A stretch of DNA of 64,000 nt from Roseomonas sp. (GTDB taxonomy: Bacteria > Pseudomonadota > Alphaproteobacteria > Acetobacterales > Acetobacteraceae). Every line of letters starts with the position of its first letter. The stretch's first letter is position 1. Of this stretch, positions 10,958 to 40,975 are shown piece after piece. The DNA lies in assembly GCA_044356015.1 (NCBI GenBank), contig JBIKXA010000002.1:173-64172 (forward strand). The letters are read 5' to 3'. Made by a program: the position numbers and the translations under genes. Under the pieces are notes generated by a model. It was not told the DNA's origin, searched no databases, and saw only the letters and a program-made list of their open reading frames with translations.

Positions 10958-10960
10958 TCT

Positions 10961-12535: not shown

Positions 12536-12539
12536 CGGC

Positions 12540-14159
12540 TCAGGCGCCAAAATTGCCGGGGCGGAAATCCATCGCGAAGGCCGGGCTGGCCTTCCAAGTC
12601 GTATCACGCCGCTTGGCTGTGAAGGTGGCGTTCTGATGCAGCACGGTGAAGGCCGGGTCTTCACGTTCCGCAATCTCCAGCATCCGGCGGAAGACCGCGC
12701 GGCGGCGTGCACGATCCGTGCTGGTTTCCAATTCCACCGACAGACGATTGAATTCCTCATTCGTCCATTCGCCAACCTGTTGCTGCTGGCCGCTGGGACC
12801 GTGCTGATTCACGATGGACGAAACAGGATCATTAAAGGGCGCGCTATTGGACCAGTCACGCAGCGCGCGCGGCGTCTCGCGAGAGAAGATTTGCGCCCAA
12901 TTCTCGCGCATTTCGATCTGCACATTAAGCCCGGCCTGCCGCCACATCTCGACCAAGATCTGCGCTGTGGCATTCTGATTGGTGTAGTAATTATTCAGCA
13001 GACGATAGGGGATGGGCTCACCACGGTAATTCGCTTCCCGCAGCAGGCGCCGCGCCTCATTCAGATTAAAGGCGGGGACGGACCAATCCGCGTGGAACAT
13101 CTCACCATAATACTCCCATTGCAGCCCCTTCGGCACAACGGTGCGGCCGGCCCAAAGGCTGTCCACAATGGCCTGACGATCAATGGCATGCGTCATGGCG
13201 CGGCGTACACGCGGGTCGCGGAGTTGCGGATGGTTCTTGTCGAAAACTGTCAGACGATGGTTCAGGATCGTGCCGCCCTGCACTTCAAAGGCGCGGTTGC
13301 GCTCAATGCCGGCGATCTGATCGGGGGGCATATCGCAGGCGAATTGATATTCACCCGAGAGCAGGCCATTCACGCGAGAGGCCACTTCAGGCACTTCCAC
13401 AAAGCGGATTTGCCGCAAGGGCGGGCGGCCGCCCCAATATTCATCATGCGCAACCAGTGTCAGTGATACATCGGGGCGGAATTCCGCGACCATATAGGGC
13501 CCGGTGGTGATTGGCTTGCGCGCCCAATCCAGCCAGCTTGCGGCTTCGTTGAAGCCACGGCGAGAGCAGATATCGCTGCCATAGCGCGCAAGGCGGCCTT
13601 CCAGGGTGACATCGGGCGTGCGGTTGATGAAGCGCACGGTGTAGCGGTCAACCGCTTCTACCCTCTCGAGCGCGGGCCAGATGCGCCGGGATACCGCCAC
13701 CACTTCAGGCGGCAATTCCTTGCCCTGCGGGCCTTGACCCGGAATGCGGGAAAATAATGTGCCAGTGGCGGGCGCGGCTGGCGTACCAGTGCCGAACATG
13801 CGTTCCGGCCCGAAGGTGAAGACCACATCTTCCGCGGTCATTTCATCGCCGTTATGGAATTTCACGCCGCGGCGCAGTGACAGTTCAACCGTGCGGTCAT
13901 CAATGCGGCGCCATTCGGTGGCAAGCCCCGGCATGGTTTCAAGATTGCCGAGCCAATTGCGGCCAATCAGCCCTTCCCAAAGGGAGGTGAAGAAAACCCT
14001 TTCCCCCACATTGGATTGTTCGCGCAAAACCTCAAGCGTATTGCTGTTGACAATCTTTTGCACCGCAACCGTGATGGAAGGGCGTTGATCCGCCTGTGCA
14101 ATGGCAAAGCGCGGTAAAAGGGCAAGGCCTGGGATGGCAAGAATCTCACGGCGCAGCAT
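12540..14159 (-). CDS. ABC substrate-binding protein, family 5 (copy 3)
   Basis: MLRREIL, LRRGVKFHNG, PITTGPY, LLNNYYTNQ. Confidence 0.92.
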   Translation of the reverse strand: MLRREILAIPGLALLPRFAIAQADQRPSITVAVQKIVNSNTLEVLREQSNVGERVFFTSLWEGLIGRNWLGNLETMPGLATEWRRIDDRTVELSLRRGVKFHNGDEMTAEDVVFTFGPERMFGTGTPAAPATGTLFSRIPGQGPQGKELPPEVVAVSRRIWPALERVEAVDRYTVRFINRTPDVTLEGRLARYGSDICSRRGFNEAASWLDWARKPITTGPYMVAEFRPDVSLTLVAHDEYWGGRPPLRQIRFVEVPEVASRVNGLLSGEYQFACDMPPDQIAGIERNRAFEVQGGTILNHRLTVFDKNHPQLRDPRVRRAMTHAIDRQAIVDSLWAGRTVVPKGLQWEYYGEMFHADWSVPAFNLNEARRLLREANYRGEPIPYRLLNNYYTNQNATAQILVEMWRQAGLNVQIEMRENWAQIFSRETPRALRDWSNSAPFNDPVSSIVNQHGPSGQQQQVGEWTNEEFNRLSVELETSTDRARRRAVFRRMLEIAEREDPAFTVLHQNATFTAKRRDTTWKASPAFAMDFRPGNFGA

Positions 14160-15825: not shown

Positions 15826-16084
15826 CTTGATCAGCCTTGCCGAAAGATAGGGCGACTTGAAGCGCGCATGACAAATGTCATCTTCCGAAAGCCGCGCACT
15901 GGCAGAAAAATTCCGGGCTGAAGCCCCAGCGGCTTAGGGGGCGGATACGCCAAGCCCGGCAAGAATATTGGCCGCCACCTCTGCCTCGATTGCTTGGCGT
16001 GCGGCGCGCGTTGCCGAGCCAAGATGCGGTGTGAACACGCTATGCGGATGATCCAGCAGAGCGCTTGGAATCACCTGCAGGCCG

Positions 16085-16113
16085 GTCCGTCGTCAAATGA
16101 TTTGACGACGGAC
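16085..16113. repeat. Perfect palindrome; boundary motif copy 1
   Basis: GTCCGTCGTCAAAT-G-ATTTGACGACGGAC (14-bp arms). Confidence 0.9.
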
Positions 16114-16231
16114 AGGCTGACCCTAAAATTGGTCGCACAGGAGTTAGGGTGAGGTAGGCGCACAAAGGGGCTGGCGAAGAGATTTGGCAAAAAGGTCTGA
16201 AATTTCCGTGCCCCCGTCTCGTGATTCCTGA

Positions 16232-24704: not shown

Positions 24705-24789
24705 CGGCGCGGGCCACCTTTCATCATTCAACGGACCGACCATGGGGCAGCGTTATGGGCTTGTCATGTCAAAAGCGTAAGAATCCGCG

Positions 24790-24925
24790 CTTTGATAGCC
24801 GCTTGATATCACTTTTGAGCGTGATGTGAGGCGCCTTCGCCAAGGTGGTCACCGCAACGCCAGCCAATCCATGGCAGGCGTCACCGGACACAGGAGCAAG
24901 AGACCACCATGAGCACCACCACCGC
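24790..24925 (+). repeat. Duplicated promoter/5' leader, copy A
   Basis: Colinear with 27573-27710 (TTGATA.CCGCTTGAT....TTTTGAGCGT..TGTGAGGCGCCT.CGCCAAGGTG ... GGACACAGGAGCA ... CACCATGAGCAC). Confidence 0.85.
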
Positions 24926-25139
24926 ACCGATGATGCCCGTATTCCAGAAACTGCGGGCTGAGCGTTTGACTGCGCCATACACAAGCGCATCCACGCAGGA
25001 AGCAGTTTTGTCTGCGGGCGGCCAAGCCTTCTTCGGCCGGATACTGCGCATGATGGGCGAAAGCCTGTGCAAAGCCATGGACCGCCGCGCGGCGGCGCTC
25101 ACGCAGCGCAGCGCTCAGCCGGCCGCTTTACCTTGGTGA
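24909..25139 (+). CDS. Small hypothetical protein
   Basis: AGGAG RBS and MSTTT start shared with the methyltransferase leader; the rest is unrelated. Confidence 0.45.
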   Translation: MSTTTAPMMPVFQKLRAERLTAPYTSASTQEAVLSAGGQAFFGRILRMMGESLCKAMDRRAAALTQRSAQPAALPW

Positions 25140-27415: not shown

Positions 27416-27572
27416 CGGATCCCCCCGCGTCATCATGGCCTCGTAGAACGCGCCCAAGAGCTCCCGGCAGCTTGATCCTCGCCGCGCGTTTGTTCGTCCG
27501 GTTGGCCAAAACGCCTTCAGGCCGTCCATTCAATTTCCCGCATTTTTTATCTCAAAAATACTGCCCCCTGCG

Positions 27573-27710
27573 TTTTGATACCCGCTTGATGGTGGTTTTG
27601 AGCGTCCTGTGAGGCGCCTGCGCCAAGGTGCTGTCAGCAGCGCAAGCCCATTCGCGGCAGGCGCCCCCAGGACACAGGAGCACGACGTCACCATGAGCAC
27701 GACAACCACG
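27573..27710 (+). repeat. Duplicated promoter/5' leader, copy B
   Basis: Homologous to 24790-24925; TTGA at 27575, 27586 and 27598. Confidence 0.85.
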
Positions 27711-28553
27711 CCGAACATGCCGTCACCCCAAGGGGTGCCGCCTTCCACCCCGCCCGACCTTTCAGCGGTCAAAGCCAAGCAGCAGGCAGCCTGGTCTGCC
27801 GGTGATTACGCTATTGTTGGCAGAACGCTGCAGATTGTCGGCGAAAACCTTTGTGAGGCCGTAAACCTCCGCGCTGGGGAGCGCGTGCTGGACGTGGCCG
27901 CCGGGAACGGCAATGCAACACTGGCCGCGGCGCGCCATTTCGCCGAAGTCACCTCAACGGATTACGTACCAGCATTGCTCGAGCGCGGCCGTGCGCGCGC
28001 CGAGGCCGAGGGCCTGCAAGTCACCTTCCGCGAAGCGGATGCCGAGGCGCTGCCCTTCGCGGATAGCACCTTTGATGTCGTCCTTTCGACCTTCGGTGTC
28101 ATGTTCACCCCTGACCAGGCACGGGCTGCGCGCGAAATGTTGCGCGTGTGCCGCCCAGGTGGGCGGATCGGGTTGGCGAATTGGACGCCAGGCAGCTTCA
28201 TCGGCGAATTGTTCAAGGTGCTTGGCCGTTACCTGCCGCCCGCGGCTGGCCTGCGTTCCCCAGCACTCTGGGGCACTGAGGAACGGCTGAAGGAGCTGTT
28301 CAGCGATGCTGAGGCTTCCATCCAAGCGACGCCGCGTATTTTCAACTTCCGCTACCGTTCACCGGCGCATTGGATGGAGGTGTTCCGCACCTTCTATGGC
28401 CCAGTGAACCGCGCCTTCCTCGCGCTCGATACGCCGCGCCAGGACGAATTGGAGCGCGACATTCTGAACCTGCTGGCGCGCTTCGACCGTGGCGGCGCCG
28501 GCGGCCTTGTTGTGCCCAGCGAATACCTCGAGGTCGTGGTGACACGCAGGTAA
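27693..28553 (+). CDS. Class I SAM-dependent methyltransferase
   Basis: VLDVAAGNGNA, EADAEALPFADSTFDVV, FGVMF; start MSTTTT at 27693. Confidence 0.92.
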   Translation: MSTTTTPNMPSPQGVPPSTPPDLSAVKAKQQAAWSAGDYAIVGRTLQIVGENLCEAVNLRAGERVLDVAAGNGNATLAAARHFAEVTSTDYVPALLERGRARAEAEGLQVTFREADAEALPFADSTFDVVLSTFGVMFTPDQARAAREMLRVCRPGGRIGLANWTPGSFIGELFKVLGRYLPPAAGLRSPALWGTEERLKELFSDAEASIQATPRIFNFRYRSPAHWMEVFRTFYGPVNRAFLALDTPRQDELERDILNLLARFDRGGAGGLVVPSEYLEVVVTRR

Positions 28554-30356: not shown

Positions 30357-31145
30357 TTATACCCTCTCCACCATCCTGACCGCACGCGACGCCAGCGGGA
30401 GGCTGTCCCGGCTGATGGCGGCGTCCTCACCGGGCGCGTTGATGGCACCCCAGATGGCGCGGCGGTTGCGCTCGGCCAGGCTGTCCGTGAGTTCTGCAAT
30501 CCAAAGCGTATCCCGCGCTGCGCCAAGGCGCCGCAGCATGTCGCGATGCTGATTGCGAGCCTCGGCGGTGGAAAGCGCTGGCAGGGTAAAGGCCGCCATG
30601 CGGGGGTTCACGATGGCCGGGACGGGGAATTCTGCCCCTGTGTATGGATTGCGGTCGCGCCGGTCGAGCATGACGCGGCCTTCGCGAATGCCATAGGCGG
30701 TGCCGCGCTGCAGCCGCCAGAGCTGCCCGGCGACAAGCAGCCCGATATCCATGTAGGGCGCTGCGCCATCGGTGAGATCGACGCGGAGATACCGCGCGGT
30801 CACAGGTGCGGGGAATACCAGCACAACATTCCCCTGGCTCTCACCCTGCGCCTCGGCATTCAATAGACCGGTGTCCGCAAGCGTCACGCTGAAATTCGCG
30901 GCATTCGAAAGCCGCGCCTGCACCATGGCGCCTGCGCCAAGCGTTGTGGAAATCAGCGCCACGCAATCCACCGGCACCTCGGCACCCAGATCGGCGGTGA
31001 TGGTCGCACTGCTGCCCATCAGCCTGGCGCGCCGGCGCGGCTGCGGATCCTGCAGGTTCGCGACCGGCATGGTGGCGATGGTCGCCTGCGCCGAGGCCAC
31101 GCTGCCCGTCGCCACCCGGTCCTGCTGCAAGAATGCCCCCGGCAT
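30357..31145 (-). CDS. Prophage tail-region hypothetical protein, gene A copy 1 (intact)
   Basis: MPGAFLQQD...ANLQDPQPRRRARL...GQLWRLQRGTAYGIREGRVMLDRRDRNPYTGAEFPVP...ERV*. The repeat is seen directly; the phage assignment is inference from context. Confidence 0.7.
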   Translation of the reverse strand: MPGAFLQQDRVATGSVASAQATIATMPVANLQDPQPRRRARLMGSSATITADLGAEVPVDCVALISTTLGAGAMVQARLSNAANFSVTLADTGLLNAEAQGESQGNVVLVFPAPVTARYLRVDLTDGAAPYMDIGLLVAGQLWRLQRGTAYGIREGRVMLDRRDRNPYTGAEFPVPAIVNPRMAAFTLPALSTAEARNQHRDMLRRLGAARDTLWIAELTDSLAERNRRAIWGAINAPGEDAAISRDSLPLASRAVRMVERV

Positions 31146-31146
31146 G

Positions 31147-31445
31147 TCAGCCCGCCCCCCAGAGTGTGATTTCAACCCGCCGCGCCGTCAGGCTTTCCCG
31201 CCAGCCAACGACGACACCGACAAACCCCTCATCAAAGCCAAAGGCCGGATAGGTGACGCGCCCGATCTGCCCGATCTCAATCTGCCCGAGAAACCGATCC
31301 GTCAGCACGCGGACCATGCGCGGCCCGGCTTCCAGGACGGCGCGCCATTTCTCCGCACGCGCCAGCGCCTCAGTCTCGGTCCAGTAAGCGGCAGGGAATG
31401 AGATTTCGCGCTGCTGTGCGACGCGCGAAGTGATCAGGCTGCTCT
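31147..31445 (-). pseudogene. 3' fragment of upstream prophage gene B, copy 1
   Basis: SSLITSRVAQQREISFPAAYWTE...VEITLWGAG*, homologous to 36125-36420; 5' part replaced. Confidence 0.75.
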
Positions 31446-31826
31446 GCGGGCCTTCACCGCCGCCTAAAGTGACACCGCAACGACCGCCTCCGTAAAAGCC
31501 CTTCCGCCCATCGTCTGCGGCGAGCAGAACATCCTCGACGCCGCAGTTCCGCACCCGATGACGAATCCGCTGACTGCGCGTGCAATCATCGGGTCCAGGC
31601 GCCCAAGGATTAGGCCAAATCCATAGGATGCGAGAATTTGGTACGTCGAAACGGAGTTCTTCTGTCTGCTACCTAGCTTGTCATGGGTAGCAAAAACTGG
31701 GCAAGATGTTCCTGCTGACGTCATATGATGAACAAGAGCCTTCAGGCCGCAAACGCCCAATGCCGGGATCTCATTGGCCTGTACGCTGTTTGCACGAACT
31801 ACGGCTCGTCAATGCAACCGGAGAGG

Positions 31827-32846
31827 ATGATCATGGCTCGATCCGAATGGCTCCTGGGCCGCCGAGTATTCTTGGGTGCCAGTGCAGCGGCGCTGACCAC
31901 ACCAGCCATCGCCCAGCAGCGAGCCGGGCGCGCGGATCGCGTGATCTTTGGCATCGGCCTCTCCGCACCTTTCGCGCCCTATTTGGCGCTGGTCGAGCGC
32001 GGGATCGGCACGAAGCATGGCATTCGCGCCGAATACCGCGTCTTCGAATCCTCCATCGGTGGAATGGAAGCGGTGGTGACGGGCAATGCCCATGTTGCCT
32101 TCGGAAGTGAGCTTTCCGCATTGCGTCCACGCGCTTCGGGGGCGCGGATCCTGGGCGTCGGGCGCCCACTGATTTCTGACAAGGACATCGGCATCGGTGT
32201 CAATTCCACGATCCAACGCCCGGAGGATTTCCGCGGAAAGCGTGTTGGCATGATCCGTGGCACAGCGGCCGACTATCTCTTTCATCTATTTTGTCAGCGA
32301 CATGGTCTCACTGAAGGCACAGGCCCGAACGACATCCGCGTGCTTGCGGTCCAAGCGCCTGAATGGGTGCCAGCCCTGCAGCGTGGTGACATTGACGCGT
32401 TCTTCGGATGGGAGCCTTGGCTCACGCGCCTGCCCACGATCGTGCGTGGCGCGCGTGTTTACGCCTATTCCTCGGAAGATAACCTCTATCAGCTCTGGTA
32501 CACGATGGTGTTCCGAGAGGAATGGGCGCGCGAGGATCCTGACAGTGCCGGGGCCACCTATCGGGCCGTGGCGGAAGCCATGGAGTGGGTCAACGCCAAC
32601 CGCGAGGAGGCGGTGCAGCTCGCCGCACGGATATTCCGTACGCCAGTCGCCGACATGCGGGTGCAGATGGCGGCCAACAATTATGTGCTCGATACAAAAC
32701 GCGAGCATCCGGTCCGCATTAAGCAGGTTGCCGCCTGGGCAAGGCAGCGCAACCTGATCAATGTTGACAATACGGATCGCCTTGTTGATGACTACTACTA
32801 TCCGGACATCGCCAAGCGGTACGCTCCGAACCTGACCGATTTTTGA
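31827..32846 (+). CDS. NitT/TauT (SsuA/TauA-like) ABC substrate-binding protein
   Basis: Tat-like GRRVFLG, EDFRGKRVGMIRGTAADY, ALQRGDIDAFFGWEPW. Confidence 0.88.
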   Translation: MIMARSEWLLGRRVFLGASAAALTTPAIAQQRAGRADRVIFGIGLSAPFAPYLALVERGIGTKHGIRAEYRVFESSIGGMEAVVTGNAHVAFGSELSALRPRASGARILGVGRPLISDKDIGIGVNSTIQRPEDFRGKRVGMIRGTAADYLFHLFCQRHGLTEGTGPNDIRVLAVQAPEWVPALQRGDIDAFFGWEPWLTRLPTIVRGARVYAYSSEDNLYQLWYTMVFREEWAREDPDSAGATYRAVAEAMEWVNANREEAVQLAARIFRTPVADMRVQMAANNYVLDTKREHPVRIKQVAAWARQRNLINVDNTDRLVDDYYYPDIAKRYAPNLTDF

Positions 32847-32851
32847 TTGCA

Positions 32852-33640
32852 ATGTCGTTCATCGAGTTTCGGGATGTCGGGTTCCGTTATGGCGAGCAGG
32901 AGGATGCGGGTAACAGCATCCTCCGCGGCCTGGACCTGGAGATCGCCCGTGGCACCTTCTACGTTTTGCTTGGACCATCGGGCTGCGGCAAAACGACCGC
33001 TTTGAACCTTCTTGCTGGGTTTGAAACACCGAAATCTGGCTCCGTGCTGGTTGAGGGGCGGCCGGTGCAGCAGCCGGGTATGGATCGGGTCGTCATTTTC
33101 CAGGGCGATGACAGTCTCTACCCCTGGCTAACCGCGCTCGAAAACGTGGAATTTCCCCTGCGCATGACGGGACGAGGTGCAGCGGAGCGCCGAAGCCGAG
33201 CCGAGACTTGGCTGGCGCGCGTTGGCCTTGCCAATCATGCGGCGAAGTTTCCGCACCAGCTCTCCGGGGGCATGAAGCAGCGTATCCAGATCGCACGTGC
33301 GCTCGTCTGCGACGCGCCGGTCCTGCTGATGGATGAGCCCTTCGGGGCGCTGGACGCGCAGACGCGGACGATCCTGCAGGATGAATTGGTTGATATCTGC
33401 GCCGGTTCTGGTGCGACCGTACTATTCATCACACACGATATCGCCGAGGCGATCATTCTCGCCGATCGCATCGGCGTGATGCGTGCCGGGCCAGGCAGTG
33501 CCGTCAAGGACGAGTTCGAGCTTGATCTCCCGAGACCACGCAATCGCGGTAGCGTGGAGTTTGCCGCCATTTATGATAGGATCCAACGCGTATTGAGCGA
33601 GGAGGTCCAGAAGGTGGTGATGCGCGAGGCGGCGGCGTGA
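32852..33640 (+). CDS. NitT/TauT ABC ATP-binding subunit
   Basis: GPSGCGKTT, LYPWLTALENV, LSGGMKQR, MDEPFGALDAQTR. Confidence 0.92.
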   Translation: MSFIEFRDVGFRYGEQEDAGNSILRGLDLEIARGTFYVLLGPSGCGKTTALNLLAGFETPKSGSVLVEGRPVQQPGMDRVVIFQGDDSLYPWLTALENVEFPLRMTGRGAAERRSRAETWLARVGLANHAAKFPHQLSGGMKQRIQIARALVCDAPVLLMDEPFGALDAQTRTILQDELVDICAGSGATVLFITHDIAEAIILADRIGVMRAGPGSAVKDEFELDLPRPRNRGSVEFAAIYDRIQRVLSEEVQKVVMREAAA

Positions 33641-34437
33641 GCGGCGCCATCGCCAAGCCCCCCGGCCATGGCTTTGTACACCATCTAACGTGGCTGGTGT
33701 TGCGTCTCCTTCCCTTCGTCGGGATGATCTTCCTGTGGGACTTCACCTCCCGCGTTTTTGATGTTCCTGTGTTGTTTCCAGGACCGCTGAGCACCTGGAA
33801 TAAGGCGACACAACTTATCGCCGAGGGCCAGTTGCAGGCGGACATCCTGATCAGCCTATGGCGCATCGCAGTCGGTTTCGTACTGGGCTCGCTGCTCGGC
33901 ATGACGCTTGGACTGATGATGGGATTGTCGCGCCCCATTGCCGATATTCTGGGCCCATTCGTCCACACGCTGCGCTTCATCGGACCCATCGCTTGGATTT
34001 CCGCGGTCATGATGTGGTTCGGATTAGGCGAGACCTCCAAGGTCGTTCTGATTGTCTACACGACGACCTTCGTGGTGCTGATCAGCACCATGATCGGCGT
34101 GATGACCATTCATCCGAACAAGCTGCGTGCAGCCCGGGTCTTCGGCGCCCGGGGCTTCCGTCTCTTTGCGCACGTCACCTTGCCGGCCGCATTGCCTCAT
34201 GTCCTCACGGGCGCGCGGCTCGCCATGATGAATTCTTTCATGACCATCATCGCAGCCGAGATGGTGGCAGCCCGGGAAGGGCTCGGCTTCCTGATCTTCA
34301 ATTCCCGGCAATGGATGGAGGTAGATGCGATTTTTGTAGGCATGATTACGCTCGGCCTGCTCGGGCTATTGGCTGACCGGCTCATGGTCCTGCTGACGCG
34401 GGTGCTGTTCCGCCGCTTCCGGCCGGCAGAAGCGTGA
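33637..34437 (+). CDS. NitT/TauT ABC permease
   Basis: ISLWRIAVGF, IGPIAWI, AAEMVAAREGLG. Confidence 0.9.
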   Translation: MSGAIAKPPGHGFVHHLTWLVLRLLPFVGMIFLWDFTSRVFDVPVLFPGPLSTWNKATQLIAEGQLQADILISLWRIAVGFVLGSLLGMTLGLMMGLSRPIADILGPFVHTLRFIGPIAWISAVMMWFGLGETSKVVLIVYTTTFVVLISTMIGVMTIHPNKLRAARVFGARGFRLFAHVTLPAALPHVLTGARLAMMNSFMTIIAAEMVAAREGLGFLIFNSRQWMEVDAIFVGMITLGLLGLLADRLMVLLTRVLFRRFRPAEA

Positions 34438-35198
34438 GCGTGCACGTGTCTCGCAGTGTGATGCGCGGAGGCGGTGCAATCCTGCTATTTTTGATCGCCT
34501 GGGAAATCGCCGGGCGCACCATCTTCGTTCCTGCCGTGCTCCCCGCGCCAAGTGCCATAGCCGCTGAGGGCTGGGCGAGGTCGCTTTCCGGAGCACTGCA
34601 ATGGGACGTGCTGATGAGCGCCTCCCGCCTTGCGGTTGGCTTTGCCGCCGGCAGTATTCTGGGGGCCTTCCTCGGACTGCTGTTCGGGGCCTTCGCTCCC
34701 GTGCGGCGCATCCTAGAACCCTTGGTGCAGTTTCTCCGCTTTATTCCGCCGATCGCATGGCTGACGCCAGTTCTGATTTGGTTTGGCATCGGCGAGGAGG
34801 GCAAATGGGTTCTCATTACCTACACGACTACCTTCATGGTCCTACTCAACACACTCGCGGGTTTCGCCGAACAGCATCGCGACCGGATGCGTGCTGCGCA
34901 TGTCTTTGGAGCCGGATCTTGGGAGGCATTCCTGCACGTCCGCTTGCCTGCCACAGTTCCGTGGATCCTGGGCGGCATGCGCATAGGGATGGGTAATTCC
35001 TTCCAGACGCTCATCGTCGCGGAGATGTTGGCTTCAAACGAGGGGCTGGGTCAGCTGATCCTAAATAGCCGTCTGCAGCTCTCCACCGAGGGCATGTTCG
35101 TAGGAATCGCGGGTATTGCGGTTCTGGGCATCCTGGCCGATTCTGTATTTCGAGCCACCACGCGAAGAATGTTCCATCGATATCGCCTGGGCTGGTAA
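34434..35198 (+). CDS. NitT/TauT ABC permease
   Basis: FIPPIAWL, VAEMLASNEGLG. Confidence 0.9.
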   Translation: MSVHVSRSVMRGGGAILLFLIAWEIAGRTIFVPAVLPAPSAIAAEGWARSLSGALQWDVLMSASRLAVGFAAGSILGAFLGLLFGAFAPVRRILEPLVQFLRFIPPIAWLTPVLIWFGIGEEGKWVLITYTTTFMVLLNTLAGFAEQHRDRMRAAHVFGAGSWEAFLHVRLPATVPWILGGMRIGMGNSFQTLIVAEMLASNEGLGQLILNSRLQLSTEGMFVGIAGIAVLGILADSVFRATTRRMFHRYRLGW

Positions 35199-36125
35199 AG
35201 TCCTGAGGTGTTGTCCATCGTCAAATGATTTGAGACTGATTGGCGTTTTGGGTAACAGAGTATCGGGCGCATCTGTGGGATAGGTAATGCTGCGTTTTGG
35301 TGATGCATCCGGCGGCAAAGCTATCCAACTGCCCCCTATTACCCTCTCCACGATCCTGACCGCCCGCGCCGTGAACGGAAAGCTGTCTCGGCTGGCGCTG
35401 GCTTCTTCCCCCGGTGCATTGACCGCCCCCCAAATGGCCCGGCGATTGCGCTCGGCAAGGCTGTCGCCAAGCTCCGCAATCCAAAACGCATCGCCAGTAG
35501 CCCCAAGTCGGCGCAGTAATTCGCGGTGCTGGTTGCGCGCCTCGGCAACCGACAACGCGGGCAAGGTGAAAGCCGCAAAGCGCGGGTTGATGATGGCCGG
35601 CACTGGGAATTCCGCGCCGGTGTATGGATTGCGGTCGCGGCGGTCGAGCATGACGCGGCCTTCGCGAATGCCATACGCCGTGCCGCGCTGCAGCCGCCAT
35701 AGCTGCCCCGCCACAAGCAGCCCGATATCCAGGTAAGGCGCCGCACCATCGGTGAGGTCAATCCGGAGATACCGCGCCATGACAGGCGCCGGCAGTACCA
35801 GCACAACATTCCCCTGTGCCTCATCCTGCGCCTCGGCGTTGATGGTGCCGGTATCAGCCTGCACAGTTGCAAAACTGCTCATATTGGCAAGCCGCACCCG
35901 GGTGGTGGCATTGGCGCTGAGCGTCGTGGAAAGCAACGCCACGCAATCCACCAGCAGGGCTGCCAGCAAATCCACATCGATTGTTGCATTAGCCGCATTG
36001 AGCCGCGCCCGCTGCCGCGGCTGCGCATCCTGAAGGTTTGCAAGCGGCATGCTCGGCACAGTGGCTTGTGCGCTGTTCAGCACAGCGCCCTTGGCGACAT
36101 TGTCATACAAAAACGCCCCCGGCAT
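35061..36125 (-). CDS. Prophage tail-region gene A copy 2 (normal stop lost near 35337; read-through extension)
   Basis: Colinear with copy 1 up to ERV, then GTA ATA instead of GTA TAA, so the frame runs across the boundary motif into the antisense of the permease. Confidence 0.7.
   Translation of the reverse strand: MPGAFLYDNVAKGAVLNSAQATVPSMPLANLQDAQPRQRARLNAANATIDVDLLAALLVDCVALLSTTLSANATTRVRLANMSSFATVQADTGTINAEAQDEAQGNVVLVLPAPVMARYLRIDLTDGAAPYLDIGLLVAGQLWRLQRGTAYGIREGRVMLDRRDRNPYTGAEFPVPAIINPRFAAFTLPALSVAEARNQHRELLRRLGATGDAFWIAELGDSLAERNRRAIWGAVNAPGEEASASRDSFPFTARAVRIVERVIGGSWIALPPDASPKRSITYPTDAPDTLLPKTPISLKSFDDGQHLRTLPAQAISMEHSSRGGSKYRIGQDAQNRNTRDSYEHALGGELQTAI
35213..35233 (+). repeat. 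Boundary motif copy 2
   Basis: GTCCATCGTCAAATGATTTGA, 14 nt after the permease stop; identical to 39610-39630. Confidence 0.9.
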
Positions 36126-36830
36126 CAGCCCGCCCCCCATGCCGTGATTTCAACGCGCCGTGCCGCAAGCCTCTCCCGCCAGCCGACCACCACGCCGACA
36201 AAGCCGTTCTGAAACCCAAAGGCGGGATAGGTTACGCGCCCGATTTGCCCGATTTCGATCTGCCCAAGATACCGATCCGTCACCACGCGCAGCATGCGCG
36301 GCCCGGCCTCAACCAAGGCCCGCCATTTCTCGGCACGCGCCAGCGCCGCAGCCTCGGTCCAGTATTAGGCGGGGAAAGTCATTTCGCGCTGCTGCGCGAC
36401 GCGGGAGGTAATCAGGCTGCTTTCCACCCGGGCGAAACTTCCCGCCTGGGAAAGCCGCTGCCGGTCGGCCGCCGCGATACTGCCAACCATGTTGGACAGC
36501 GGCGCATGGTTCAAGCCCCAGCGCACCGCAATGGTGCGCGGCAACAGGCGCAAGCCCGCAGGCAAGACCAAGGGCTCACAGGCCAGTACGCATTCCGCGG
36601 GCAGGTCGGCGGTGCCCGATATAGTGCTGGTAATCCGACTGGCAGCGACACCGCACAGATGATCCGGGCCAAATAACGTCCTGTCGCGCGCATCCGGTGT
36701 GCGGCAAATGGCGACCACCTCATGCGCGGCAGGGTCCGCCATGCAGAATACATTCTTGGTCCGCCGGCCAGCGCCACCCAGCCACCCGGGTCGGAGAACA
36801 CAAGGATGGTGGTGCAGATTAACTATCCCG
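36125..36830 (-). pseudogene. Prophage gene B copy 2 with in-frame nonsense codon
   Basis: TFPA*YW (TAA at 36365-36367) where copy 1 reads SFPAAYW; 5' part truncated near 36830. Confidence 0.75.
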
Positions 36831-36908
36831 GCCAGCCATCATAGAAATCACTATTAAGCTCGCCGCCATAGGAGTCGAAAACTGAGTCCTCCAGCAAGCC
36901 GTTTGATG

Positions 36909-36929
36909 TCAATTCACTTGATGACGGAC
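36909..36929 (-). repeat. Boundary motif copy 3 (inverted, degenerate)
   Basis: Reverse complement GTCCGTCATCAAGTGAATTGA matches copy 1 at 18/21; 7 nt past the TctC stop. Confidence 0.75.
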
Positions 36930-36936
36930 CGGGCCA

Positions 36937-37920
36937 CTATTCCCCCTTGATGCCTGCTGCTGCGATCACTTCGGCGAATCGCTTCTCGGCGTCCTTCAGC
37001 ACCTTGTCGAATTGCGCAGGGGTACTGGCGTGAATGACAAAACCCAAGGCCTGCAACCGCTGCTTCACACCAGGATCATCCAGTGCTACCTTCCATGCAC
37101 GATACCAAACATCCACAATATGATCCGGCGTTTCTAATGGCACTAAAATACCTTGGGTGCTTGGGACATCAAAACCTGGAATACCGCTTTCAGCAAAGGT
37201 CGGCACATTCGGCATGGCTGGATCACGCTGTAATGTTGATACTGCTAAGGGGATCAAACGTCCTTCCCGGACATAGGTCGTCACAGCCGGCAGTGTGATG
37301 ATCTGCGCATCCACTTGGCCGGCAAGTAAGTCAATCGTGGCTGGCCCACCTCCACGATAAGGAACATGCGTGACCGTAAGCCCAAGGGCTCGGTTCACCA
37401 TTTCGCTAATAATATGTGCAATGCCACCAATACCTGGGACCGCAAGGGTAACCTTGTCCCCCCGCGTTCTCAGCGCCAAGAGATAATCATCTATGTTGCG
37501 TATGCCCGAACGGGGATGCGTACAAAGCAGTTGCGCCGCAGTAATGGTCATAGTCACTGGACGAAGCTTTGACGCGGGTCGCCCGTGGCGTGCCCCAACC
37601 AGAATATCCTGTAGGATGAGACCATCACCCGATGCGACCATCTGCGTTAGGCCATCTGGCGCTGAGCGTGCCACAGTTTGTGTGGCGACCAGACCCGCGC
37701 CGCCGCCCTGATTTTCCACAATCAGCGCTTGGTTCAGGTGACTTGAGAGCACAGGTTGTGCTGCGCGCGCATGAATATCAAGCGTGCCACCAGGTGCTGC
37801 CGCAACAATGATTCGTACCGGTTGCGATGGTCGCCATGGCTGCGCCAATAACGGCCACGGGAACAGCGTCAAGGCGGATGTGGCGATCATCAAATTCCGA
37901 CGCGTCAATCCCCGGTCCAT
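36937..37920 (-). CDS. Bug/TctC tripartite tricarboxylate transporter receptor
   Basis: RRNLM, PGGTLDIHAR, VENQGGGAG, HVPYRGGGPATIDLLAGQVD, PTFAESG. Confidence 0.9.
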   Translation of the reverse strand: MDRGLTRRNLMIATSALTLFPWPLLAQPWRPSQPVRIIVAAAPGGTLDIHARAAQPVLSSHLNQALIVENQGGGAGLVATQTVARSAPDGLTQMVASGDGLILQDILVGARHGRPASKLRPVTMTITAAQLLCTHPRSGIRNIDDYLLALRTRGDKVTLAVPGIGGIAHIISEMVNRALGLTVTHVPYRGGGPATIDLLAGQVDAQIITLPAVTTYVREGRLIPLAVSTLQRDPAMPNVPTFAESGIPGFDVPSTQGILVPLETPDHIVDVWYRAWKVALDDPGVKQRLQALGFVIHASTPAQFDKVLKDAEKRFAEVIAAAGIKGE

Positions 37921-37954
37921 TGTCTTCCTCCTTGCTGGGTCTTGTTGGATTTCC

Positions 37955-39571
37955 TCAGTTTGGCCAGGCGCCAAAGGGTGCATCACCGTCCTTCTTCACC
38001 TCATGCACTAGATCAATTTCCCAGGCGAGGTAGGCGCGCATGGCTTCCTCGATGCCGTCATTATGATCGAAGGGGAGCAGATGAACATCGTCGCAGTCCC
38101 AGTCCTCCGGATTACGTCGATTGGCAACAATAGGCAGGCCACAGGCTTTCCATTCTGCCATTCCGCCAGCCAAAATTGCTATCGGCACCGCGACGAGATC
38201 CGCCAGTTCAGCATAGGCCAAGCGGGCCAGCGCCGGTTCCGGCGCCGTGATCACAAGCTGCTCCGCTGCGCCAAGTTTCGGCAGCAGGCGCGCAAGACGC
38301 CCCCTCAAACCCCAGATCGCACCAGGTGCATGGCCAGCGCGGAAACTGACCGAACGATTCAAATCAATGATCCTCACGCGGTCCCCTTGGGCCGCAACTT
38401 CGCGCGGGGATATTTGCGGTGCGGCAATCCCATTTGCTTCCGGGCAATGCAGGGGCGGCGTGCCATCTTCAAGCGCGCCATTCAGCCCACCTTCAAGAAC
38501 ATAGACTTCCCACCCCCCAAGCTCGCGCAACCATCCCGCACTCATCCGCGCGCGCGTGCCGGTATCGTCAATCAGAATGATGCGGGCATGGCGCACCGCC
38601 ACCCACATATCCACCGATTGAACAAGCTGCCCGCCCGGCGCATTCAGGCTTCCTGGCAAATGACCTTGCACATATTCTGCCGGATCTCTCACATCCAGCA
38701 GATAGCAGCTTCGGGATATATCCTTTCTCAGTGTTTCTGCCTGTTGGGCATCAATGAAACGCACGCCGCGCTTTCGTGCAAAATGATCAGCACGCTCTAG
38801 GGCCAATTCTGCCTCTCGCGGTACGCCGATACTGAAGCTTTCCGTCTTGCCGTGCGCGCATTGGTAGCCCGCCAATTCCCAGCCCATGGTTCCATTGCGC
38901 AGGGCCACAACCTGATTGGGTATGCCAGCACTACGCAGCGATTCCGCGCCCATAATGGACCGAGTGCGCCCTGCGCAATTGATAATAATGGTGGTTTCAG
39001 GATTATGGACGAAATCCCCAATCCGATAAACCAGTTCACCACCCGGCACGTTGATGCCGCCGGGAATGGACATTCTGATGAATTCGTCCTTCGGTCGACT
39101 ATCAAGAATCACCATATTGCCGCCAGTCTTCACCATCGAATCCAATTCGGCGGGATCTATTGAAGGTGTTTCGTAGTGATGTTCGACCCATTCGCCAAAA
39201 GCCTTGGATGGCACGTGCACCCCTGAGAACGCGACATATCCGGCGGCAATCCAGTTGGGCATCCCACCCTCAAGAACAGAAACATCGGCATAGCCAATGA
39301 GCAGCAGATATTTGGCGAGTGTTTCCGCGCTACCCTGCCCGCCATCCACGCAAACGATACGCACGGTTTTGGAGGGCAAAAGTGCACGCGCGCGCCATTC
39401 CATGCGAGAAACTGGGCATGGCACGGCCCAGAACAAATGACAGGGACCGAAAGCACTTTCCTCACGCGCATCAAGAATGGCCAGTTCAACACCGTCATTG
39501 ATCAAGGTCTTAACCTGCGCAGGTGTCATGTATCGCAACGCAGCTCTGCCTGATGTGCTTGCTTGGATCAT
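37955..39571 (-). CDS. Multi-domain rhodanese-type sulfurtransferase
   Basis: Repeated rhodanese starts LDARE, LDSRP, LDVRD, IDLNR; active-site-like INCAGRTRS. Start taken at MIQAS (39571). Confidence 0.85.
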   Translation of the reverse strand: MIQASTSGRAALRYMTPAQVKTLINDGVELAILDAREESAFGPCHLFWAVPCPVSRMEWRARALLPSKTVRIVCVDGGQGSAETLAKYLLLIGYADVSVLEGGMPNWIAAGYVAFSGVHVPSKAFGEWVEHHYETPSIDPAELDSMVKTGGNMVILDSRPKDEFIRMSIPGGINVPGGELVYRIGDFVHNPETTIIINCAGRTRSIMGAESLRSAGIPNQVVALRNGTMGWELAGYQCAHGKTESFSIGVPREAELALERADHFARKRGVRFIDAQQAETLRKDISRSCYLLDVRDPAEYVQGHLPGSLNAPGGQLVQSVDMWVAVRHARIILIDDTGTRARMSAGWLRELGGWEVYVLEGGLNGALEDGTPPLHCPEANGIAAPQISPREVAAQGDRVRIIDLNRSVSFRAGHAPGAIWGLRGRLARLLPKLGAAEQLVITAPEPALARLAYAELADLVAVPIAILAGGMAEWKACGLPIVANRRNPEDWDCDDVHLLPFDHNDGIEEAMRAYLAWEIDLVHEVKKDGDAPFGAWPN

Positions 39572-39609
39572 TTCGCGTTCCCTTTGCAGAATATGCTGCC
39601 ATGACAAGT

Positions 39610-39630
39610 GTCCATCGTCAAATGATTTGA
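39610..39630 (+). repeat. Boundary motif copy 4
   Basis: GTCCATCGTCAAATGATTTGA; gapless similarity to copy 2 continues a further 42 nt (GAGTATC.GGC.CATCTG). Confidence 0.9.
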
Positions 39631-39796
39631 GGTCGATTTGCGGCTTGACTAGCGGAGTATCTGGCCCATCTGCGTGTCCACCGTCAGCGCCTCTGAGACC
39701 AAACTGGCGAAGTGAGGTACGGAGAATTTCCGGCTCATCGTAATCCCAAAGAAAGTGAGGATGAACCATCTGCGGCGCCACTAGTTGGCATCCCCC

Positions 39797-40533
39797 TCAC
39801 AGTCTCTCCACCATCCTGACCGCCCGCGATGCCAGCGAAAAGCTGTCCCTGCTGGCGCTGGCCTCTTCCCCTGGCGCATTGACCGCGCCCCAAATGGCCC
39901 GGCGATTGCGTTCGGCGAGGCTGTCGCCAAGCTCAACGATCCACAGCGCATCCCCCGCCGCACCAAGCCGGCGCAGCAGGTCGCGGTGCTGGTTGCGGGC
40001 CTCGGCAACCGACAAGGCCGGCAAGGTGAAAGCCGCAAAGCGCGGATTGATGATGGCTGGCACCGGAAATTCTGCCCCGGTGAATGGATTGCGGTCGCGC
40101 CGGTCGAGCATGACGCGGCCTTCGCGAATGCCGTACGCCGTGCCGCGCAACAGCCGCCACAGCTGCCCCGCGACCAGCAGCCCGATATCCATGAAAGCCG
40201 CCGCGCCATCGGTAAGATCAATCCGGAGATACCGCGCCGTGACAGGCGCGGGCAGCACCAGCACGACATTGCCCTGTGCCTCATCTTGCGCCTCGGCATT
40301 GATGGTGCCGGTGTCAGCCAACACCGTCGCAAAGCTGCTCACATTGGCAAGGCGCACGCGGATGGTGGCCTTGGCGCTGAGTGTGGTGGAAAGCAGCTTC
40401 ACGCAATCCACCGGCAGGGCTGCCAGCAGATCCACATCGATTGTTGCGCTGGCCGCATTGAGCCGCGCCCGCCGCCGTGGCTGCGCATCCTGAAGGTTGG
40501 CAAGCGGCATGCTCGGCACATTGGCTTGTGCGC
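39797..40533 (-). pseudogene. Prophage tail-region gene A copy 3 (N-terminus lost)
   Basis: Homology to copy 2 starts at GCGCACAAGCCA (~40533) and ends ERL*; the first ~15 codons are replaced. Confidence 0.72.
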
Positions 40534-40649
40534 AACTTCCATCATCGCGAGTGGCGCCTGCGCCTCAGGATCATCCGGCTCGGCTTCGGCGCGCGCAAGG
40601 GCGGCCGCGAGTTCATTGGCATTGCTGGACGCGGCTTCGGTGATGGCCA

Positions 40650-40975
40650 CCGGTGCAACGCCAACGCAGCCCAGCGGCGTAGAAATATAGCGTGGCGGTA
40701 TGATGGATCGCCTCGTCCGAGGTGGGGCTGTAGAGAACATTGGTCAGGATTTGTGCCAGCGTCGCAACCGCGCCAGGGGTTGCCATGCTCTCCCCCAGTG
40801 TGGCCACACGCGCGGCGTTGTAATCAATAATGCCTCTCACGAGGCTGTGATCGCCGGAAAGCAGCAAAGGCACACCGCGATAAAGCTGCGCGGTGGCGGC
40901 GAAGGGTGTCGCCAACGTCAGGTCGGTAGTGGTGCCGCTTGCGGCGGAGGTGGCGGCGCCGATGGCGGTATTGGT
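40650..40975 (-). pseudogene. Internal fragment of a putative phage tail-tube/major tail protein
   Basis: AATSAASGTTTDLTLATPFAATAQLYRGVPLLL...NVLYSPTSDEAIHHTATLYFYAAGLRW; no start; family recalled from alphaproteobacterial prophages. Confidence 0.45.

What the first reader, a model, noticed from the sequence alone, without database searches (positions are those of the whole stretch)
30357..40975. Array of three diverged phage tail-gene copies, each followed by a different metabolic cassette
Seen: one minus-strand gene recurs at 30357-31145, ~35337-36125 and 39797-40533 (periods ~5.0 and ~4.5 kb). The 39-aa block GQLWRLQRGTAYGIREGRVMLDRRDRNPYTGAEFPVPAI is identical in copies 1 and 2 and differs at two residues in copy 3. 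Just downstream of each copy lies unrelated, intact cargo: rhodanese+TctC after copy 3, a NitT/TauT ABC system after copy 2, the MFS end of the SARP module after copy 1. The upstream phage gene is cut at a different point in each unit. Inference: the distal tail locus of a prophage family works as a repeated capture site, and units of tail gene plus cassette accumulate by homologous recombination between related prophages, giving an integron-like nutrient-gene array without an integron integrase.
Basis: partly seen in the sequence, partly recalled or inferred. Interest (0 to 1): 0.85.

Follow-up and report, generated by a model that had tools for sequence, protein, structure and literature searches.

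The report
Prophage tail-gene relics scrambled by IS3
Three diverged leftovers of a phage tail-tip gene really do sit between transporter and enzyme genes in a freshwater Roseomonas genome. They look like decayed prophage stubs cut and joined by an IS3-family insertion sequence, not an integron-like gene-capture device.

Summary
Three minus-strand copies of one gene lie at 30357-31145, 35340-36125 and 39797-40537. They are 77-88% identical in DNA. At least ten independent metagenome contigs reproduce the array.

The gene is phage-derived. It matches PHROG 8610, has an N-terminal CBM32/discoidin lectin fold, and lies downstream of the tape-measure and tail-collar genes in intact relatives.

The integron-like reading is not supported.
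- Each unit is a collapsed, collinear patchwork of prophage scraps.
- The copies diverged under purifying selection (dN/dS 0.13-0.24, dS 0.41-0.96). They therefore descend from distinct phages, not from duplication in place.
- Three cassette borders (35212, 39609, 36930) are exact termini of a 1518-bp IS3-family element that is multicopy in these genomes.
- For every cassette, a relative carries it without "its" tail-gene copy. In one relative the rhodanese-TctC pair follows an amidase gene that is missing here.
- The window has no integrase, no attC-like sites and no transposase.

Best explanation: a cluster of prophage relics remodelled by IS3 insertion, recombination and deletion.

Two things remain unexplained. 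Relics cluster in one orientation, and transporter cassettes lie between relics in two other Roseomonas genomes.

The parts
30357..31145 (-). Gene A copy 1: intact, 262 codons, stop TAA at 30357-30359. The phage-derived sequence ends 6 nt past the stop, next to the 3' flank of the MFS gene.
   Evidence: (phrog_8610, E 2.6e-26).
31150..31665 (-). Relic 1: C-terminal piece of the 519-570-aa phage protein X, which precedes gene A in intact prophages.
   Evidence: tblastn to L005 X residues 472-570 (96%) and to L039 X residues 354-517 (54%); phrog_8917 C-terminal end.
31725..35198 (+). ABC importer operon: NMT1-type binding protein, ATPase and two permeases. It is convergent with gene A copy 2.
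   Evidence: The same operon plus relic 1 is 95.5% identical in L019, which diverges beyond 35209.
35212..35324 (+). 'Alpha': fossil right end (IRR plus about 105-113 nt) of the IS3-family element. The terminus 5'-TGTCC is at 35212 and the IS interior points toward gene A copy 2.
   Evidence: IS nt 1-105, 80% identical; 30 of 34 IR positions.
35340..36125 (-). Gene A copy 2. The stop codon is lost (TGA to ATA), so the frame runs on to 35061, across alpha and into the antisense of the permease gene.
36128..36607 (-). Relic 2: C-terminal 160 residues of phage protein X.
   Evidence: L005 X residues 411-570, 82.5% identical.
36613..36810 (-). Relic 2: two short scraps of phage genes that lie 3-4.5 kb further upstream in intact prophages. 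One is a tail-collar protein fragment at 36614-36700.
36878..36930 (-). Degenerate IS3 right-end fossil. Its terminus is at 36930, 7 nt past the TctC stop, and its interior points toward relic 2. L249 shares it.
   Evidence: (24 of 34 IR positions; 0 expected by chance).
36937..39541 (-). TctC-family binding protein (36937-37986) and a triple-rhodanese protein (37955 to about 39541). Outward-facing IS termini bracket this piece of a longer gene cluster.
39609..39674 (+). IS3 right-end fossil (IS nt 1-66). Its terminus is at 39609, about 50 nt upstream of the rhodanese start.
39675..39768 (+). 'Beta': IS3 left-end fossil (IS nt 1518-1424, including the first codons of OrfA). Its terminus abuts the preceding right-end fossil.
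   Evidence: 30 of 35 IR positions.
39797..40537 (-). Gene A copy 3: residues 17-262 only, 5'-truncated.
40538..40939 (-). Relic 3 scraps. A 58-nt piece matches DNA 10 kb upstream of gene A in L005 (40538-40595). A fragment of a minor tail protein lies at 40649-40939.
   Evidence: phrog_290 minor tail protein for the L041 homologue.

Best explanation
The three copies are the surviving tail-end stubs of three different but related siphovirus-type prophages of freshwater Roseomonas (Acetobacteraceae).

Gene A encodes a lectin-like protein: a CBM32/discoidin N-domain plus a conserved C-domain. It closes the tail-tip module, whose order is tape measure, collar protein, 189-aa protein, Laminin_G-like protein, protein X, gene A. 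In intact relatives, whatever follows its stop codon varies: a ParB-ParB-serine-integrase module, defence genes or toxin-antitoxin genes.

In the window, each prophage has been whittled down by deletions to a collinear patchwork ending in gene A. A 1.5-kb IS3-family element that is multicopy in these genomes then reshaped the region. It did so by insertion, by recombination between IS copies or IS fossils, and by adjacent deletion. This left only IS end fossils at the borders and placed the stubs next to ordinary chromosomal transporter and enzyme genes.

Shown: phage origin; independent descent of the copies; the patchwork structure; exact IS termini at three cassette borders; cassettes existing without the adjacent relic in relatives; contiguity.

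Inferred: the order of events; that IS-IS recombination and deletion rather than transposition made each join; and why the relics cluster. A likely reason is repeated integration of related phages at or beside an earlier prophage.

The array has no function of its own. Copy 1 may still encode a protein, copy 2 has lost its stop codon, and copy 3 is truncated.
For: Phage identity:
- PHROG 8610 and 8917 hits.
- A 69%-identical homologue lies inside about 37-kb phage contigs with an integrase.
- Intact relatives carry TMP_3, Collar and Laminin_G_3 genes upstream.
- The fold matches CBM32 modules (Foldseek E 1e-7), and the full-length model matches a Caulobacter phage Sansa protein (TM 0.73).

Patchwork relics.

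Independent descent:
- dS 0.41-0.96 with dN/dS 0.13-0.24 between copies.
- Copy 1 is closer to copies in other genomes (about 89% nt) than to copies 2 and 3.
- Host DNA in L019 differs by only 4.5%.

The IS:
- Full copy at L127 336-1853 with OrfA and OrfB. The NCBIfam IS3 score is 182.6 against a cut-off of 160.
- The terminus pattern was found in more than 117 stretches of public genomes. Many lie 100-140 nt from a contig end, as expected for a multicopy repeat.
- Window fossils lie at 35212, 39609, 39675 and 36930, with 0 expected by chance.

Cassettes without their relic:
- L019 matches through the ABC operon and diverges at 35209-35211, which is the IS terminus.
- L249 has amidase-rhodanese-TctC, and homology to the window stops at about 39600 and at 36878.
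- L023 has the MFS block followed by other genes.

The window has no integrase or transposase.

IS-mediated rearrangement by recombination between IS copies is well documented (PMC5009759, PMC4173774).
Against: - Three relics of one family within 10 kb, all in one orientation, is more clustering than decay plus random IS activity predicts. Similar same-strand clusters occur in other genomes: L001, L025, L026 and L049/L122.
- In L026 and L025 the DNA between two relic fragments is again a transporter or metabolic cassette: a TRAP transporter, and TctC plus enzymes.
- The same junction between the gene A stop, a 14-nt linker and the IS end recurs with different outer flanks in at least 7 loci. 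The 26-nt terminal repeat is better conserved than the rest of the fossil. This hints that the piece may be moved or repeatedly recombined rather than merely decaying.
- No target-site duplications were found, so no single IS event is reconstructed.
- The border of copy 1 (30355) and the three 5' edges carry no IS trace.
Confidence: 0.58

Rival explanations
1. Recombination-driven accretion. Gene A relics act as portable homology. Circles or linear fragments carrying a gene A copy plus neighbouring genes integrate by RecA-dependent crossover at a resident relic. Arrays of relic-cassette-relic therefore grow over time.
For: - All copies share one orientation, and the units are kilobase-sized.
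- Relics cluster in several genomes, and transporter or metabolic cassettes lie between relic fragments in L026 and L025.
- The orthologous relics L023, L024 and L028 share a left junction but have three different right-hand neighbours starting at or just after the gene A stop.
- Exact shared words of 32-49 nt are about the minimum needed for RecA.
Against: - Each cassette occurs in a relative without its gene A copy.
- Borders are IS termini, not anonymous homology ends.
- The rhodanese-TctC segment is a cut piece of a longer gene cluster.
- Copies are 12-23% diverged, and copies 2 and 3 show no reciprocal mosaic pattern.
- The 5' edges are irregular deletions that differ in every locus.
Confidence: 0.2
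2. IS3-bounded non-autonomous mobile units. A gene A fragment fused to an IS3 right end, together with a second IS end in inverted orientation, forms a MITE-like or composite element. The IS3 transposase moves it in trans and so scatters tail-gene fragments.
For: - Relic 2 (35212-36930) is bracketed by inverted IS termini whose interiors face each other.
- L023 has a 635-bp element: an inverted IS end, gene A residues 111-262, then an IS end.
- The identical gene A/IS junction has at least 7 different outer flanks.
- The terminal repeat is conserved: 0-3 mismatches in 26 nt, against about 20% divergence elsewhere in the fossil.
Against: - There are no target-site duplications.
- The 36930 end is degenerate and is shared with L249, which has no relic there.
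- Relics 1 and 3 have no second IS end.
- No two loci show the same complete unit in different flanks.
- Recombination or gene conversion with resident full-length IS copies could explain both the precise borders and the conserved repeat.
Confidence: 0.12
3. The cassettes are phage cargo. Related prophages integrated in tandem, each carrying a transporter or enzyme cassette in the variable locus downstream of gene A. Later decay removed everything except tail stubs and cargo.
For: - The locus downstream of gene A is variable and carries accessory genes in intact relatives: methyltransferases and a CARF-like protein in L162, and PDC-S41, JukA-like and ZacB-like genes in L037.
- The order of pieces in each unit is collinear with a prophage map.
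Against: - Cargo seen in intact relatives is defence, toxin-antitoxin or integration genes, never transporters.
- IS fossils separate the cassettes from gene A.
- L249 shows rhodanese-TctC behind an amidase gene with no phage genes on its 4.8-kb contig.
- The ABC operon's far side differs in L019.
Confidence: 0.05

Closest known systems
Cryptic (defective) prophages and prophage relics
   Same: Phage structural genes are stranded in a chromosome, truncated and missing the integration, replication, lysis and packaging modules. Different copies descend from related phages.
   Different: Only the last 0.7-1.7 kb of the tail module survives. It survives three times in a row on one strand, with non-phage operons in between. 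The same clustered pattern recurs in other genomes of the genus.
IS-mediated genome rearrangement (IS3 family; recombination between IS copies, adjacent deletion, solo-end fossils)
   Same: Synteny with relatives breaks at exact IS termini (5'-TGTCC...GGACA-3'). The IS is multicopy and breaks assemblies. The leftovers include solo ends, abutted ends and a 31-bp palindromic scar (PMC5009759, PMC4173774).
   Different: No intact IS remains in the window, and no target duplications could be paired. One particular junction, between a phage gene end and an IS end, is old and widespread.
Prophage hotspots of accessory or defence genes (e.g. the P2/P4 hotspots, PMC9122126)
   Same: In intact relatives, a fixed point right after a conserved phage gene holds different accessory genes in different prophages, including defence-type genes.
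   Different: Here only one conserved flank was identified. In the window, the DNA after gene A is IS fossils plus chromosomal transport and enzyme genes rather than phage cargo.
Integron cassette arrays
   Same: Superficially similar: a repeated element alternates with unrelated gene cassettes.
   Different: There is no IntI and no attI or attC. The repeats are 0.7-1.7-kb decayed coding sequences. The cassettes are multigene operons in both orientations, and one is a cut piece of a longer gene cluster.

Membership tests
Integron | IntI-type tyrosine recombinase next to the array | tested here: not met
   tblastn with a phage tyrosine integrase and a large serine integrase finds nothing in the window. 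Pfam on the large ORFs shows no recombinase. Small ORFs were not all scanned.
Integron | Short attC recombination sites flanking each cassette | tested here: not met
   The repeats between cassettes are 0.7-1.7-kb coding relics. The only short palindromic elements are IS3 terminal repeats.
Integron | Mostly single, promoterless ORF cassettes in one orientation | tested here: not met
   One cassette is a four-gene ABC operon on the opposite strand. The other is a two-gene piece of a longer gene cluster.
Defective prophage / prophage relic | Genes homologous to phage structural genes, in phage gene order | tested here: met
   PHROG 8610, 8917 and 290 hits. Homologues lie downstream of the tape-measure, Collar and Laminin_G_3 genes in L005, L162 and L039. 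Pieces are collinear in each unit.
Defective prophage / prophage relic | Lacks the modules needed for an autonomous cycle; genes truncated | tested here: met
   Only fragments of X, the Collar protein, a minor tail protein and gene A match. There is no integrase or ParB, and no tape-measure or other upstream structural gene of the relatives tested. Terminase and capsid genes were not searched for directly. Copy 2 lost its stop codon and copy 3 is 5'-truncated.
IS3-family insertion sequence (fossil ends) | OrfA (helix-turn-helix) plus OrfB (DDE rve) transposase | tested here: met
   Met in the reference copy L127 336-1853 (HTH_Tnp_1; rve; NCBIfam IS3 182.6 bits, cut-off 160; the IS481 model scored 215 bits, below its cut-off of 224). 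No transposase sequence is left in the window.
IS3-family insertion sequence (fossil ends) | Terminal inverted repeats ending 5'-TG...CA-3' | tested here: met
   TGTCCGTCGTCAAAT...GGACA. Window ends lie at 35212, 39609, 39675 and 36930.
IS3-family insertion sequence (fossil ends) | 3-5-bp target-site duplication | tested here: not met
   Flanks of the window ends do not match each other. This is expected if the ends come from different IS copies or from recombination.
Composite transposon / MITE-like unit | Two inverted IS ends bounding the unit, a target duplication, and the same unit at other sites | tested here: inconclusive
   Inverted ends bracket 35212-36930 and a 635-bp unit in L023. 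There is no duplication. The 36930 end predates the relic, since L249 shares it. No identical unit was seen elsewhere.
Prophage accessory-gene hotspot | Variable gene content at a fixed position between two conserved phage genes across related prophages | tested here: inconclusive
   Content just after the gene A stop differs in nearly every locus, even among copies at least 88% identical. A second conserved flank was not identified.

The most novel reading that the evidence does not exclude
In freshwater Roseomonas, the end of this tail gene together with a fossil IS3 end forms a recurrent scaffold. It is a dispersed, same-oriented repeat that nucleates the stepwise gathering of transporter and catabolic cassettes. 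The mechanism would be relic-relic or IS-fossil recombination, or trans-mobilisation of IS-end-bounded units. This would explain why relic-cassette-relic arrays appear in at least three genomes with different cassettes.
Probability: 0.18. Interest if true: 0.6.

Novelty: new member of a known kind. Interest (0 to 1): 0.3.

Why it matters
It corrects an attractive but unsupported reading. The alternation of a repeat with unrelated cassettes does not mark a capture system here. It is the footprint of prophage decay plus IS3 activity.

It is also a clear natural example of two processes: related phages repeatedly leaving tail-end stubs in one accessory region, and a single IS family cutting gene clusters and joining unrelated pieces. 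The example is reproducible across many metagenomes.

The open point is modest but real. Relics cluster, and transport genes lie between them in several genomes. Population time-series data could test whether such relic repeats steer where accessory genes accumulate.

Tried and rejected
- **Transposable (Mu-like) phage or Tn7/Tn5053-like end.** The conserved 125 nt after copy 2 starts with 5'-TGT. This was rejected once the same end was found all over Alphaproteobacteria, unlinked to gene A, and traced to a 1518-bp IS3-family element.\n- **attR or att core downstream of gene A.** Downstream sequences share nothing beyond TGAGG(G). No inverted copy of the gene end was found.\n- **tRNA or known RNA at the borders.** None in the whole window.\n- **Homologues in deposited phage genomes (INPHARED, tblastn).** No match.\n- **Same ABC cassette next to gene A in L035, L036 and L028.** Rejected: the ATPase is only 29-41% identical, so it is a different system.\n- **Co-divergence of the IS fossil with the adjacent gene A piece.** No correlation (r = -0.04, n = 21). 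The fossils are all about 75-85% alike, which is uninformative.\n- **Target-site duplications at IS ends.** None.\n- **Mosaic or crossover signal between copies 2 and 3.** None.\n- **Look-ups of the window's CoA-transferase and MFS proteins.** Not on record, probably because of start-codon choice.\n- **Orthologue of the rhodanese gene in reference genomes.** Only 56-68%-identical core copies were found, so the window copy is a divergent second copy.


Full report
**1. The observation**

Direct-repeat search and self-BLAST confirm three same-strand copies.
- Copy 2 vs copy 3: 88.5% over 730 nt.
- Copy 1 vs copy 2: 76.9% over 1092 nt, including the end of the upstream gene.
- Copy 1 vs copy 3: 76.7% over 711 nt.
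- Spacings: 4980 and 4460 nt.

Copy 1 (30357-31145) is an intact 262-codon gene. Copy 2 (35340-36125) has its stop codon changed from TGA to ATA and reads through to 35061. Copy 3 (39797-40537) lacks the first 16 codons.

Along the gene, copy 1 is only 61-68% identical to copies 2 and 3 in the N-terminal third, but 87-91% identical around that block.

The array is not an assembly artefact.
- The exact copy-2 reading frame is on 19 contigs.
- Six JGI contigs from different samples are 99.5-100% identical to the window from as far as 29061 to about 42140. L250 and L251 span all three copies in full; the other four end inside or short of copy 1.
- Four Logan contigs confirm 36110-39983.
- The longest exact word shared by any two copies is 32-49 nt.

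**2. What the gene is**

All three copies hit PHROG 8610 (E 1e-26 to 1e-30). They hit the F5/8 type C domain weakly, below the Pfam cut-off. The upstream fragment hits the C-terminal end of PHROG 8917.

There are 269 homologues, mostly 262 aa, and almost all come from freshwater Roseomonas/Acetobacteraceae metagenome-assembled genomes. A 69%-identical homologue lies in about 37-kb phage contigs with a tyrosine integrase.

In closer relatives (L005, L162) the gene order is DUF6441, a 1240-aa tape-measure protein (TMP_3), a Collar-domain tail protein, a 189-aa protein, a Laminin_G_3 protein, protein X (519-570 aa), then gene A.

An AlphaFold model has mean pLDDT 64. Residues 1-145 are confident and the C-terminal part is poor. 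The N-domain matches CBM32/discoidin carbohydrate-binding modules (Foldseek E about 1e-7, TM 0.75 on the target). The whole model matches an uncharacterised protein of Caulobacter phage Sansa (TM 0.73).

So 'phage tail-region gene' is supported by position and fold. Its exact role, probably glycan recognition at the tail tip, is inferred.

**3. What follows gene A in relatives**

Homology between loci stops within a few bases of the stop codon, even among copies at least 88% identical. Three kinds of neighbour were seen.
- In five loci, two ParB-like genes and a 516-aa large serine recombinase (PHROG 95 integrase, E 3e-63) are convergent with gene A, and toxin-antitoxin genes lie beyond them.
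- In L162, DNA methyltransferases and a CARF-like protein follow.
- In L037, PDC-S41, JukA-like and ZacB-like genes follow.

So the gene A stop codon is a module boundary with variable accessory content. This resembles known prophage hotspots (PMC9122126), although I identified only one conserved flank.

**4. Anatomy of the three units**

Each unit is a collinear patchwork of prophage scraps ending in gene A.
- Unit 1: X' (31150-31665) plus gene A.
- Unit 2: two scraps from 3-4.5 kb further upstream in intact prophages (36613-36810, including a Collar-protein fragment), then X' (36128-36607), then gene A.
- Unit 3: a minor-tail-protein fragment (40649-40939), a 58-nt piece that lies 10 kb upstream of gene A in L005 (40538-40595), then gene A from residue 17.

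These are independent internal deletions, as expected of decaying prophages.

**5. The copies are not duplicates made in place**

Pairwise values:

| Pair | dN/dS | dS |
|---|---|---|
| Copy 2 vs copy 3 | 0.13 | 0.41 |
| Copy 1 vs copy 2 | 0.24 | 0.87 |
| Copy 1 vs copy 3 | 0.18 | 0.96 |

Copy 1 is closer to copies in other genomes (about 89% nt, dN/dS 0.06-0.10) than to its neighbours. Host DNA in the closest relative differs by only 4.5%. The divergence therefore built up while the genes were working phage genes. The three stubs come from at least two, and probably three, phage lineages.

**6. The key to the borders: an IS3-family element**

The 125 nt after copy 2 recur after gene A in many loci and end sharply at ...GACGATGGACA. 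They were mostly Roseomonas and other Alphaproteobacteria, unlinked to gene A. Very many lie 100-140 nt from a contig end, the signature of a multicopy repeat that breaks assemblies.

A full copy (L127 336-1853, 1518 bp) encodes OrfA (HTH_Tnp_1) and OrfB (rve). It passes the NCBIfam IS3 cut-off and has 5'-TGTCC...GGACA-3' ends.

The window contains no transposase but does contain end fossils:
- a right end at 35212 (105-113 nt);
- a right end at 39609 (66 nt) that abuts a left end at 39675 (95 nt, including the OrfA start);
- a degenerate right end at 36930 (24 of 34 positions);
- a 31-bp perfect palindrome of the terminus at 16084-16114.

None of these is expected by chance.

Consequences for the borders:
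- The join between the ABC operon and unit 2 is an exact IS terminus.
- The rhodanese-TctC segment (36931-39608) is bracketed exactly by two outward-facing IS termini.
- Unit 2 (35212-36930) lies between two IS ends whose interiors face each other.
- No target duplications pair up.

**7. Comparative tests of the 'tail gene plus cassette' unit**

- **L019** is 95.5% identical over 30664-35209. It has copy 1 (there interrupted by another IS), X' and the whole ABC operon. It diverges within 3 nt of the IS terminus at 35212 and has no copy 2.
- **L249** is 87% identical over 36878-39579. It has amidase-rhodanese-TctC. Homology stops about 10 nt from the IS terminus at 39609. On the other side it includes the degenerate IS end. 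There L249 carries a miniature IS of about 250 bp where the window has relic 2.
- **L023** has the regulator-methyltransferase-cupin-MFS block followed by 4.4 kb of other genes before a gene A fragment.

So each cassette exists without 'its' tail-gene copy, and one cassette is a cut piece of a longer gene cluster. The rest of the window is ordinary accessory metabolism, with no further phage genes, integrase or tRNA: peptide ABC transporter, sulfatase, formamidase, acyl-CoA enzymes and a branched-chain ABC system.

**8. Best explanation and what it leaves open**

The array is a cluster of prophage tail-end relics remodelled by IS3 insertion, recombination and deletion (confidence about 0.58). 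IS-mediated rearrangement through recombination between IS copies is well documented (PMC5009759, PMC4173774).

Three things are not explained.

*Clustering and orientation.* Same-strand multi-relic clusters also occur in L001, L025, L026 and L049/L122. Their copies are again 76-87% alike. This is more than a few relics scattered over several megabases should give. I did not compute a formal expectation.

*Transport genes between relics.* In L026 a TRAP transporter lies between two relic fragments. In L025, TctC plus enzymes do. These genomes are rich in such genes, so this is suggestive only.

*A widespread, old junction.* One old junction (gene A stop, a 14-nt linker, then the IS end) occurs with at least 7 different outer flanks. 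Its 26-nt terminal repeat is better preserved than the rest of the fossil. Either trans-mobilisation or repeated recombination with resident IS copies would explain this.

These points keep the recombination-accretion model (0.2) and an IS-bounded mobile-unit model (0.12) alive. The phage-cargo model is weak (0.05).

**9. Comparison with known systems, and verdict**

The array fails every integron criterion tested. It meets the criteria for defective prophage relics, and the sequence criteria for IS3 end fossils (transposase genes in the reference copy, TG...CA terminal repeats), though no target-site duplications were found. The composite-transposon/MITE and prophage-hotspot descriptions are inconclusive.

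The finding is real and reproducible, but its kind is known: prophage decay plus IS-mediated mosaicism. Novelty is 'new member of a known kind' and interest is about 0.3. A more novel reading, relic and IS-fossil repeats as a scaffold for accessory-gene accretion, has a probability of roughly 0.18.

Noticed in passing
window 16084-16114: A 31-bp perfect palindrome, GGTCCGTCGTCAAATGATTTGACGACGGACA, made of two IS3 termini joined at the repeat's internal 13-bp palindrome (TCAAATSATTTGA). It looks like the scar left when a whole IS was deleted by recombination between its two ends.
   Followed up: partly
window 9353-14159: Three tandem paralogous SBP_bac_5 solute-binding genes, 65-68% identical in DNA, lie next to an oligopeptide-type ABC transporter. 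This accounts for the other large internal repeat in the window.
   Followed up: partly
window 24787-24937 and 27570-27721: A 150-nt repeat (78% identical). One copy lies upstream of the 1251-aa BTAD/AAA/TPR regulator gene and the other at the start of the methyltransferase gene. Both copies are also present in L023. Possibly a shared regulatory or leader region.
   Followed up: no
window 35061-35339: Loss of the copy-2 stop codon creates a 359-aa reading frame. It runs across the IS fossil and overlaps the 3' end of the convergent permease gene. Gene callers annotate it on 19 contigs.
   Followed up: partly
L162 10992-18121; L037 1733-9889: In intact or longer relatives, defence-type genes lie right after gene A. 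L162 has two cytosine methyltransferases and a CARF-like protein. L037 has PDC-S41, JukA-like and ZacB-like proteins plus an HsdM methylase.
   Followed up: partly
L249 4390-4640: A miniature IS3 derivative of about 250 bp (right end plus left end, interior deleted) sits directly after the TctC stop codon. The window has relic 2 at this position. Internally deleted, MITE-like copies of this IS therefore exist.
   Followed up: partly
L019 10482-10740: The orthologue of copy 1 in a sister genome is interrupted at about codon 160 by a different IS3-like element, whose end is TGAACCGCACTGGG.... The same element is seen in L063, L075, L077 and L091.
   Followed up: no
L023 209-847; L024 9930-10440; L028 1030-1540: At an orthologous locus in three genomes, an inverted 70-nt IS3 right end is fused to gene A at about residue 115. 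The three loci have three different right-hand neighbours. The L024 and L028 copies carry a stop codon or a frameshift, while the L023 copy looks intact.
   Followed up: partly
window 37955-39541: The triple-rhodanese gene is a divergent second copy. Close Roseomonas genomes carry a core copy that is only about 63% identical. Copies 88-100% identical occur only on a few short metagenome contigs.
   Followed up: partly
L002, L004, L049, L073, L083, L100, L118 (bin JADCCX, labelled Methylocystis): Several contigs of a bin labelled Methylocystis carry Roseomonas-type gene A relics and the same IS3 element at high identity. This suggests mis-binned Roseomonas contigs.
   Followed up: no
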